From Octopus vulgaris (lineage: Eukaryota): a stretch of 64,000 nt of DNA. The DNA lies in contig OX597817.1 of assembly GCA_951406725.2 (NCBI GenBank), positions 71,796,001-71,860,000 on the forward strand. Direction: 5' to 3'. The position numbers and the translations under genes were made by a program. This document shows, in pieces, positions 61,246 to 63,183 of this stretch (position 1 is its first letter; the number at the start of each line of letters is the position of its first letter). The notes beneath the pieces were generated by a model. That model saw only the letters and a program-made list of their open reading frames with translations. It had not been told where the DNA came from and ran no database searches.

Positions 61246-61282
<37 letters not shown>

Positions 61283-61402
61283 ACAATCAAGGAACGGCCA
61301 TAATAGGCCATTCACCCACTAGAAATAACAGCCAAAAGCTTTAACTGCAAAATAACATTAATTCCGTAAACCAGGAGAAAATTGAAAAACGTTTACCCTG
61401 TA

Positions 61403-61508
61403 ATTTCTTAGACGATGCACCGTTTCATCTACCGTTTAATGGTAAACTAACCTGATTAAATTAAATCAAGCCAATCCACCATAGGCCCTTAGACTCATCA
61501 TAAGAAAT
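61403..61508 (-). ncRNA. Type I hammerhead copy lacking core C3 (probably inactive)
   Basis: Reverse complement reads ATTTCTTA-TGATGA-GTCTA..; otherwise it matches 62305-62411. Confidence 0.75.
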
Positions 61509-62304
61509 AGCCAAGTCGGAACAGATATTTTTCACGAGGCATTCCTCTTGCTACCTCGGCAATATCTGACCTAAAATTTTCAAATCATACTCGCGCCAAA
61601 TTTATCGGCAGCAAATAAATATAAGCCACCGATTCCATTACGGAACTAACCAGAAAATTCATAATTAATCAATATAGGGTGGCAAAAATGTTGTAGAATT
61701 CTTTTGCCACCAGCGGCCAGTGGGAAAAAATTAAATAGTCATAAACCATTTTTAAATTCAACATCAACAATCAAGGAACGGCCATAATAGGCCATTCACC
61801 CACTAGAAATAACAGCCAAAAGCTTTAACCGCAAAATAACATTAATTCCGTAAACCAGGAGAAAATTGAAAAACGTTTACCCATTAAACGGTAGATGAAA
61901 CGGTGCATCGTCTAAGAAATTACAGGGTAAACGTTTTTCAATTTTCTCCTGGTTTACGGAATTAATGTTATTTTGCGGTTAAAGCTTTTGGCTGTTAATT
62001 CTAGTGGGTGAATGGCCTATTATGGCCGTTCCTTGATTGTTGATGTTGAATTTAAAAATGGTTTATGACTATTTAATTTTTTCCCACTCGGCCGCTGGTG
62101 GCAAAAGAATTCTACAACATTTTTTTGCCACCCTATATTGATTAATTATGAATTTTCTGGTTAGTTCCGTAATGGAATCGGTGGCTTATATTTATTTGCT
62201 GCCGATAAATTTGGCGCGAGTGCGACGATTTGAAAATTTTAGGTCAGATATTGCCGAGGTAGCAAGAGGAATGCCTCGTGAAAAATATCTGTTCCGACTT
62301 GGCT

Positions 62305-62411
62305 ATTTCTTACTGATGAGTCTAAGGGCCTATGGTGGATTGGCTTGATTTAATTTAATCAGGTTAGTTTACCATTAAACGGTAGATGAAACGGTGCATC
62401 GTCTAAGAAAT
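62305..62411 (+). ncRNA. Type I hammerhead ribozyme, canonical core, GUC site
   Basis: Stem I ATTTCTTA(62305-12)/TAAGAAAT(62404-11); CTGATGA 62313-19; stem II GTCTA/TAGAT plus a 19-bp extension hairpin; GAAA 62388-91; stem III ACG-GTGCAT-CGT; cleavage 3' of C62403. Confidence 0.9.
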
Positions 62412-62795
62412 TACAGGGTAAACGTTTTTCAATTTTCTCCTGGTTTACGGAATTAATGTTATTTTGCGGTTAAAGCTTTTGGCTGTTATTTCTAGTGGGT
62501 GAATGGCCTATTATGGCCGTTCCTTGATTGTTGATGTTGAATTTTAAAATGGTTTATGACTATTTAATTTTTTCCCACTGGGCCGCTGGTGGCAAAAGAA
62601 TTCTACAACATTTTTTTGCCACCCTATATTGATTAATTATGAATTTTCTGGTTAGTTCCGTAATGGAATCGGTGGCTTATATTTATTTGCTGCCGATAAA
62701 TTTGGCGCGAGTGCGACGATTTGAAAATTTTAGGTCAGATATTGCCGAGGTAGCAAGAGGAATGCCTCGTGAAAAATATCTGTTCCGACTTGGCT

Positions 62796-62902
62796 ATTTC
62801 TTACTGATGAGTCTAAGGGCCTATGGTGGATTGGCTTGATTTAATTTAATCAGGTTAGTTTACCATTAAACGGTAGATGAAACGGTGCATCGTTTAAGAA
62901 AT
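62796..62902 (+). ncRNA. Type I hammerhead ribozyme, second tandem copy, GUU site
   Basis: Same as the previous copy except C17 is U (T62894). Confidence 0.85.
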
Positions 62903-63124
62903 TACAGGGTAAACGTTTTTCAATTTTCTCCTGGTTTACGGAATTAATGTTATTTTGCGGTTAAAGCTTTTGGCTGTTATTTCTAGTGGGTGAATGGCCT
63001 ATTATGGCCGTTCCTTGATTGTTGATGTTGAATTTAAAAATGGTTTATGACTATTTAATTTTTTTCCCACTGGGCCGCTGGTGGCAAAAGAATTCTACAA
63101 AATTTTTTTGCCACCCTATATTGA

Positions 63125-63183
<59 letters not shown>

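What the first reader, a model, noticed from the sequence alone, without database searches (positions are those of the whole stretch)
62320..62387. Unusual long stem II extension in which every arm difference is a G-U wobble
Seen: ATGGTGGATTGGCTTGATT (62332-62350) pairs with AATCAGGTTAGTTTACCAT (62357-62375) over 19 bp. All six deviations from a perfect DNA palindrome are G-U pairs on the plus strand and would be A-C mismatches on minus. Inferred: selection on RNA structure of the plus strand rather than DNA palindromy. Minimal PLE HHRs usually have a short stem II, so this may be a distinct architecture.
Basis: partly seen in the sequence, partly recalled or inferred. Interest (0 to 1): 0.7.

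Follow-up and report, generated by a model that had tools for sequence, protein, structure and literature searches.

The report
Pseudoknotted hammerhead ribozyme with long arm
This hairpin is part of a predicted self-cutting hammerhead RNA repeated over 2,000 times in an animal genome. Its pairing is kept across subfamilies, and it sits next to a short, co-varying cross-link that likely braces the ribozyme; the "all G-U" pattern holds in only some subfamilies, and cutting is untested.

Summary
Confirmed: 19 bp, 13 Watson-Crick, 6 G·U, plus strand only. The hairpin is the distal part of stem II of a full (not minimal) type I hammerhead in a 491-bp tandem, protein-free retrozyme with Penelope-type insertions. 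This scan found the family before on other DNA; at least 2,322 copies exist.

The helix is under RNA-level selection: 8 of 10 variants shared between loci keep pairing, and wobble positions move between subfamilies. "Every difference is G·U" is subfamily-specific: 1,565 of 2,322 copies carry an A·A mismatch.

New here: the 5' strand of the internal loop below the hairpin (62327-62330) pairs with bases just 5' of stem I (62301-62304), a pseudoknot. It has compensatory changes in this family and in a related family with a shorter arm. The arm likely caps that loop rather than acting in catalysis. Stem III is self-complementary, so cutting likely needs two tandem units.

A-to-I editing may supply some wobbles (not significant). 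Cleavage, circles and the partner enzyme are untested. Verdict: new structural variant of a known kind.

The parts
62301..62304 (+). Pseudoknot 5' strand (GGCU), just 5' of stem I; predicted to pair with 62327-62330
   Evidence: Compensatory G-C to A-U change in a genomic subfamily copy and in contigs of runs X2 and X19; covariation in related family B
62306..62312 (+). Stem I 5' strand (pairs with 62404-62410; 62305-62411 may add an eighth pair)
   Evidence: 3 of 7 pairs with changes on both sides among 20 subfamily rows
62313..62319 (+). Hammerhead core CUGANGA
   Evidence: Sequence; position 7 varies among subfamilies
62320..62324 (+). Core-proximal stem IIa 5' strand (pairs with 62383-62387); first pair G·U here, A-U in most copies
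   Evidence: A-U, G·U and G-C states at pair 5
62325..62331 (+). 5' side of the stem II internal loop, holding the pseudoknot 3' strand GGCC (62327-62330)
62332..62375 (+). Distal stem IIb: 19-bp hairpin with 6 G·U pairs and loop 62351-62356 (the finding)
62376..62382 (+). A-rich 3' linker of the internal loop
   Evidence: Sequence; also A-rich, 5-9 nt, in family B
62383..62387 (+). Stem IIa 3' strand
62388..62403 (+). Core GAAA, 4-bp stem III with palindromic loop (62391-62402 is self-complementary over 12 nt), and GUC triplet; predicted cleavage after 62403
   Evidence: Hairpin -0.2 versus self-duplex -17.5 kcal/mol; position
62404..62410 (+). Stem I 3' strand
62404..62894 (+). One 491-nt monomer between two predicted cleavage sites; no ORF of 120 aa or more; U 186, A 123, G 111, C 71
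62792..62901 (+). Second tandem hammerhead with an identical hairpin and a GUU triplet
61279..61882 (-). Inverted, 5'-truncated array; its hammerhead copy (about 61404-61512) lacks core C3
61279..63132 (.). Whole insertion: two diverging arrays with 3' ends at monomer positions 132 and 237, both abutting (TA)n

Best explanation
The 19-bp hairpin is the distal arm of stem II in a type I hammerhead motif of a tandem, protein-free retrozyme, and it likely serves as a structural cap that closes the stem II internal loop so that the loop's 5' strand can form a predicted pseudoknot with the bases flanking stem I. Shown: the hairpin, its conservation by Watson-Crick/G·U exchange, the covarying pseudoknot, and the self-complementary stem III. 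Inferred: the pseudoknot replaces the usual loop 1-loop 2 contact that holds stems I and II side by side; the arm stacks on the pseudoknot helix while the A-rich linker crosses back; cleavage occurs mainly as a two-unit dimer; and a Penelope-like enzyme copies the RNA into (TA)n from two fixed start points. The G·U pairs are the tolerated single-step states of a helix selected for pairing in a G+U-rich RNA, not individually required bases.
For: Pairing selection: over 82 independent sites, shared stem variants were 8 paired and 2 unpaired (both at pair 5); private variants were 2 paired and 6 unpaired. Binomial p = 0.0008-0.007 against a neutral keep rate of 0.27-0.37. The most divergent subfamily differs from the commonest A·A haplotype at six stem pairs, three towards G·U and three away from it, and all stay paired. 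Pseudoknot: in family B (23 haplotypes, 19 sites), 27 of 33 cells at the variable positions pair, against 16.2 in permutations, p = 2e-4. One pair is A-U in 8 and C-G in 7 of 17 rows; 0 of 500 shuffles reach the score, and slid controls are at most 52% paired versus 96%. In family A, one genomic locus has A-U in place of G-C in all 5 units, and both changes appear at equal depth in runs X2 and X19. The helix lies 3 nt further out on stem I and 3-4 nt further out on stem II in family A than in B. The arm starts 0-1 nt after the pseudoknot strand and is about 10-11 bp in B. Stem I/II pseudoknots are required for speed in tested hammerheads and predicted in about 40% (PMC3088659 passages). Dimer; PMC4209133 passages. 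Insertions: 126 of 130 ends in the two fixed classes abut (TA)n, and 42 of 42 two-ended sites have one end of each class.
Against: No cleavage, probing or 3D data. In the single-unit ensemble the hammerhead fold (-30.0) is less stable than the MFE (-34.2) and stem III has pair probability of 0.01 or less; pseudoknots are not modelled. The window's pseudoknot has only 4 pairs, one of them G·U (-4.2 kcal/mol). The 19-bp stem has 10 invariant pairs, 7 one-sided and no two-sided change against the commonest state. Shared versus private variants give Fisher p = 0.054. Counts are not corrected for relatedness, and the loci were not a random sample (pair 13 was selected; without it 7 of 9, p = 0.002-0.016). 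Arm columns are as variable as the rest of the unit (10 of 38 versus 91 of 381). Other families (C, D) have a distal hairpin with no upstream pseudoknot partner that I could see by eye, so the arm can exist without this contact. The apex and loop are nearly invariant (0 of 6 loop columns with shared variants), which a pure cap does not explain. The partner enzyme was not found.
Confidence: 0.68

Rival explanations
1. The arm is a recognition handle for a protein (the Penelope-like RT/endonuclease or a host dsRNA-binding protein) or an element of the whole-RNA fold, and has little to do with catalysis.
For: Loop and apical pairs are nearly invariant across subfamilies. Long stem II arms recur in several hammerhead families of this genome, including one beside a GIY-YIG match (L247). 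An earlier scan note proposed this for another lineage (e1-10342994, a lead only). The anole PLE hammerhead is protein-assisted (PMC11167929, parts 1-2 read).
Against: The two fixed insertion ends lie at monomer positions about 130 and 237, far from the arm at about 420-463. Arm sequence and length differ between families A and B while the pseudoknot register is kept. Not exclusive of the best explanation.
Confidence: 0.25
2. The wobbles are largely fixed A-to-I edits: ADAR edits the duplex, reverse transcription writes A-U as G·U into new copies, and selection removes only the changes that break pairing.
For: 3 of 5 sites diagnostic for the window's subfamily are G where all other groups have A, all in the ribozyme; two create G·U pairs. 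The unit is G-rich over C and U-rich over A. Contigs with clustered A>G or T>C changes occur in runs X2 and X20 (weak: RNA status guessed, some at depth under 5, no matched DNA). G·U share is 6 of 19 in the arm versus 16 of 127 in other predicted helices, p = 0.04.
Against: Shared A/G versus C/T polymorphisms are 51 versus 37, p = 0.09. Directional tallies are 5 versus 2 (p = 0.45) and 12 versus 5 (p = 0.14). Stem changes also run through C/U exchanges (pairs 9, 12, 13). Three G·U or U·G pairs (7, 12, 14) show no shared A-containing state.
Confidence: 0.25
3. The hairpin is a neutral by-product (a fold-back during reverse transcription, or a DNA palindrome) carried along by amplification of a few master copies.
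For: Copies are young and near-identical within subfamilies, so few independent events are seen; stem columns vary as often as the rest of the unit.
Against: Strand asymmetry; shared changes keep pairing in both directions; a homologously placed arm of different sequence in family B has a two-sided A-U/G-C change; only a 1.0 kcal/mol strand difference under DNA parameters.
Confidence: 0.06

Closest known systems
Metazoan non-LTR retrozymes with type I hammerheads (PMC7229834, passages; bioRxiv 10.64898/2026.07.22.740005, parts 1-3 of 5 read)
   Same: Tandem non-coding units, one type I hammerhead per unit, low GC, dispersed in many copies, link to Penelope-like elements.
   Different: 491-nt unit; stem II region of 68 nt with an internal loop and a 19-bp arm; a Watson-Crick pseudoknot in place of the described loop 1-loop 2 nucleotides; circular RNA not shown here.
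Hammerheads with a stem I-stem II pseudoknot (PMC3088659, passages)
   Same: A short helix between peripheral parts of stems I and II, reported in all three types.
   Different: Here the stem II partner is the 5' strand of an internal loop capped by a long hairpin, in a repetitive animal type I motif. The passages seen describe no such cap; figures and supplements were not seen.
Canonical and minimal PLE hammerheads (PMC4209133, passages)
   Same: Palindromic loop 3 allowing a dimeric active form; association with Penelope-type insertions.
   Different: Not minimal: stem I 7-8 bp, stem III 4 bp. Minimal forms have helix II of 7-8 bp and no helix III.
PK hammerhead, PDB 8YDC (PMC11300833, part 1 of 6 read)
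   Same: Hammerhead core with a pseudoknot.
   Different: There the pseudoknot replaces helix II; here helix II is intact and the pseudoknot is a peripheral brace.

Membership tests
Type I hammerhead ribozyme | Core CUGANGA, GAAA and NUH around stems I-III, with stem I open | tested here: met
   all core letters present; two-sided changes in stems I and IIa
Type I hammerhead ribozyme | Match to an Rfam hammerhead model at its gathering score | tested here: not met
   0 matches in the 64-kb window; likely due to the long stem II insert (inferred; the E-value mode was not run)
Type I hammerhead ribozyme | [quoted passage not shown] | tested here: met
   Predicted from covariation as a 4-6 bp pseudoknot; not probed
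Type I hammerhead ribozyme | Self-cleavage | not testable with these tools
   No assay; the single-unit fold competes with an alternative
Minimal PLE hammerhead | No or 1-2 bp helix III, short helix I, no tertiary contact | tested here: not met
   Stem III 4 bp, stem I 7-8 bp, pseudoknot; definition from PMC4209133 and PMC6155905 passages
Non-LTR retrozyme | Tandem non-coding units, each with a type I hammerhead; at least two consecutive units | tested here: met
   491-bp period, two complete motifs in the window, 96 distinct full monomers of 472-503 nt in the loci fetched by then
Non-LTR retrozyme | Accumulates as circular or unit-length RNA | not testable with these tools
   Only assembled contigs were available; they cannot show ends, strand or circles
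Penelope-mobilised element | Partial tandem plus inverted 5'-truncated copy, two fixed 3' ends, microsatellite targets | tested here: met
   features from PMC8557442 passages and PMC11167929. The two ends are about 105 nt apart rather than the 30-40 bp tail described
Penelope-mobilised element | Sequence shared with an autonomous PLE | tested here: inconclusive
   40 GIY-YIG loci (30 of 148 matches plus 10 wider stretches): no shared terminus; one short family fragment in L241

The most novel reading that the evidence does not exclude
A lineage of animal retrozymes uses a distinct hammerhead architecture in which a hairpin-capped internal loop of stem II forms a sliding pseudoknot with stem I. 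The arm is held at about 30% G·U by a loop of ADAR editing, reverse transcription and selection, making it a natural record of RNA editing written into a ribozyme.
Probability: 0.2. Interest if true: 0.72.

Novelty: new variant of a known kind. Interest (0 to 1): 0.5.

Why it matters
It adds a natural hammerhead layout that Rfam misses here and that descriptors with short stem II limits would likely miss, so animal ribozyme counts are probably low. Natural compensatory variants give ready-made rescue tests. A brace that tolerates arms of 10-19 bp marks a site where sequence can be inserted into stem II without losing the tertiary contact, which is of use in ribozyme engineering. The G·U pattern itself is ordinary helix evolution unless the editing link is shown.

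Tried and rejected
Rfam at gathering score: nothing.

The repeat finder over the window was swamped by microsatellites; only the inverted arms were useful.

Copies of the window's own subfamily are nearly identical and give no covariation. L118 looked like a new subfamily but is a single degraded or chimeric copy and was not used.

One search had an offset error and returned nothing. The pseudoknot rows used a register off by one and are discarded; the correct register is. In alignment A1 three rows are shifted by one column in the pseudoknot and lower arm, and in A3 six rows have a gap at one pair, so undercount.

Direction of change along the tree was not determined, so whether wobbles arose mainly by A>G stays open.

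No RNA holder is on record for the stretch; this says nothing about expression. The search for the partner PLE found intact ORFs of 771-781 aa in 6 of 10 wide stretches but no sequence link. No copy of this family with a clean short stem II appeared among the 34 matches; the short forms there belong to other families or are chance (5 control matches).

Literature: 8 searches listed no paper on cephalopod retrozymes or on this capped-loop pseudoknot. Most subscription papers, all figures and all supplements were not seen; supplements of PMC3088659, PMC7229834 and PMC4209133 may show similar folds.

Full report
Observation. The hairpin folds at -21.7 kcal/mol on plus and -5.3 on minus. The region has z = -3.59, and none of 1,000 shuffles of the repeat unit holds a stem above 16 bp. 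A decayed DNA palindrome would give six of six G·U on this strand with probability 1e-4 to 0.016.

Context. The hairpin lies inside a type I hammerhead motif: stem I 62306-62312 with 62404-62410, core 62313-62319, a 5-bp stem IIa, a 7x7 internal loop, the 19-bp arm, GAAA, a 4-bp stem III and a GUC triplet ending at 62403. Rfam does not report it. The motif recurs every 491 bp in a non-coding unit. The insertion 61279-63132 consists of two arrays pointing away from each other, ending at unit positions 132 and 237 next to (TA)n. Among 89 fetched sites with a scored end, 126 of 130 ends in these two classes abut (TA)n, 20 ends fell elsewhere, and all 42 two-ended sites have one end of each class. 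Partial tandems, inverted 5'-truncated copies, microsatellite bias and two internal RT start sites are Penelope features (PMC8557442 passages; PMC11167929 parts 1-2 of 4). The genome of 2.8 Gb holds 418 copies of the window's type and 1,904 with A at position 10.1, plus 13 length variants of the first type. Earlier notes of this scan describe the same family on other DNA and call the host an octopus; I did not determine the organism.

Is the arm selected as RNA? Six arm haplotypes occur at five or more of 84 fetched sites. All have 5-6 G·U pairs, four have one mismatch at pair 5, and two have none. With one unit per site (82 sites), variants shared by two or more sites keep pairing in 8 of 10 cases and private variants in 2 of 8. 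The binomial p is 0.0008-0.007 and Fisher p is 0.054; without the ascertained pair 13 it is 7 of 9. The most divergent subfamily moves three pairs to G·U and three away from G·U relative to the commonest A·A haplotype. Pair 9 occurs as C-G, U·G and U-A. In 20 representative rows the arm has 10 invariant pairs, 7 one-sided, 0 two-sided against the commonest state, and 2 that depart only by mismatches. These counts are not corrected for relatedness and the sample is not random. Reading: pairing is selected, the individual wobbles are not.

What the arm sits on. GGCC at 62327-62330 can pair with GGCU at 62301-62304, crossing stem I. A subfamily copy at G000:C1 has both partners of the first pair changed, G-C to A-U, in all five units, together with a G-C for A-U change in stem I. 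The same two pseudoknot changes appear at matching depth in contigs of runs X2 and X19. A looser pattern found other families with internal loops and distal hairpins in stem II. Family B shares the stem I, IIa and loop 3 letters and the downstream sequence by eye. There the helix is 4-6 bp with alternative sequences: 27 of 33 variable cells pair against 16.2 in permutations, one pair is A-U in 8 and C-G in 7 of 17 rows, and shuffled and slid controls fall well below (whole structure). The helix lies 7 nt from the core on the stem I side in B and 9-10 nt in A, and 5-6 versus 9 nt on the stem II side, so both strands shifted together. The arm of B is about 10-11 bp, begins directly after the pseudoknot strand and has an A-U/G-C two-sided change. 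Pseudoknots between stems I and II are known and needed for fast cleavage where tested (PMC3088659 passages). I found no description of one made from a hairpin-capped internal loop in 8 searches, without sight of figures or supplements. Families C and D have arms without a visible upstream partner, so arm and pseudoknot are separable.

Monomer or dimer. In one unit the hammerhead fold is 4 kcal/mol above the MFE and stem III is barely populated. The 12-nt stem III strand is self-complementary (-17.5 kcal/mol as a duplex, -0.2 as a hairpin), and the common variants keep this; one, at -7.1, is weaker. A dimeric active form is established for animal type I hammerheads with palindromic loop 3 (PMC4209133 passages; PMC6155905 passages). 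In Xenopus only one of nine tested retrozyme dimers cleaved (bioRxiv 10.64898/2026.07.22.740005), so activity here cannot be assumed.

Editing. Three of five sites that mark the window's subfamily are G against A in all other groups, and two make G·U pairs. Some contigs carry clustered A>G or T>C changes, but their RNA status is guessed and there is no matched DNA. Family-wide tests are not significant. Editing is a plausible contributor, not shown.

Mechanism, by step. Shown: structure by comparative evidence, copy architecture, fixed ends. Inferred: the pseudoknot braces stems I and II, the arm caps and stacks, tandem units cleave as dimers to release unit-length RNA, and a Penelope-like enzyme copies it. 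The partner was not found, although intact GIY-YIG ORFs of 771-781 aa exist.

Verdict. Real feature, partly right interpretation. The element is a new member of the retrozymes, already noted by this scan; its ribozyme is a new structural variant of the pseudoknot-braced type I hammerhead. Interest 0.5.

Noticed in passing
G000 families C and D (e.g. L175, L181, L185, L202, L236; L176, L196, L211): Other hammerhead families also carry an internal loop and distal hairpin in stem II, family C often with a GUAA tetraloop; no upstream pseudoknot partner seen by eye.
   Followed up: partly
L247:454 (+) and its inverted copy: Hammerhead with a 59-nt stem II beside a GIY-YIG match, unrelated in sequence to this family.
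   Followed up: no
L269-L274: Near-identical intact Penelope-like ORFs of 771-781 aa; at least 17 matches with a 781-aa frame; no clear hammerhead found in the three checked by a simple pattern.
   Followed up: partly
window 62302-62403, runs X2 and X20: Contigs with clustered A>G changes (including the core GAAA read as GGGG) or clustered T>C changes, as hyper-editing of both strands would give; RNA status guessed, some at low depth.
   Followed up: partly
window 62320 and 62387; L131, L152, family B: The first pair of stem II occurs as A-U, G·U, G-C and, in several multi-site groups, A·C.
   Followed up: no
window 61875-61882: The junction of the two inverted arrays lies at the 3' end of the long arm with an 8-nt overlap; junctions at other loci lie elsewhere.
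   Followed up: partly
window 62254-62297: A hairpin-rich segment upstream of stem I is the most variable part of the unit between subfamilies.
   Followed up: no
L157 minus strand, about 1.1 kb downstream of its hammerhead: A 141-aa open frame resembling a Penelope-like RT N-terminal region (motif recalled, not tested).
   Followed up: no
L164-L168, L172: A further family of hammerhead-like motifs with short stem II and palindromic loop 3.
   Followed up: no
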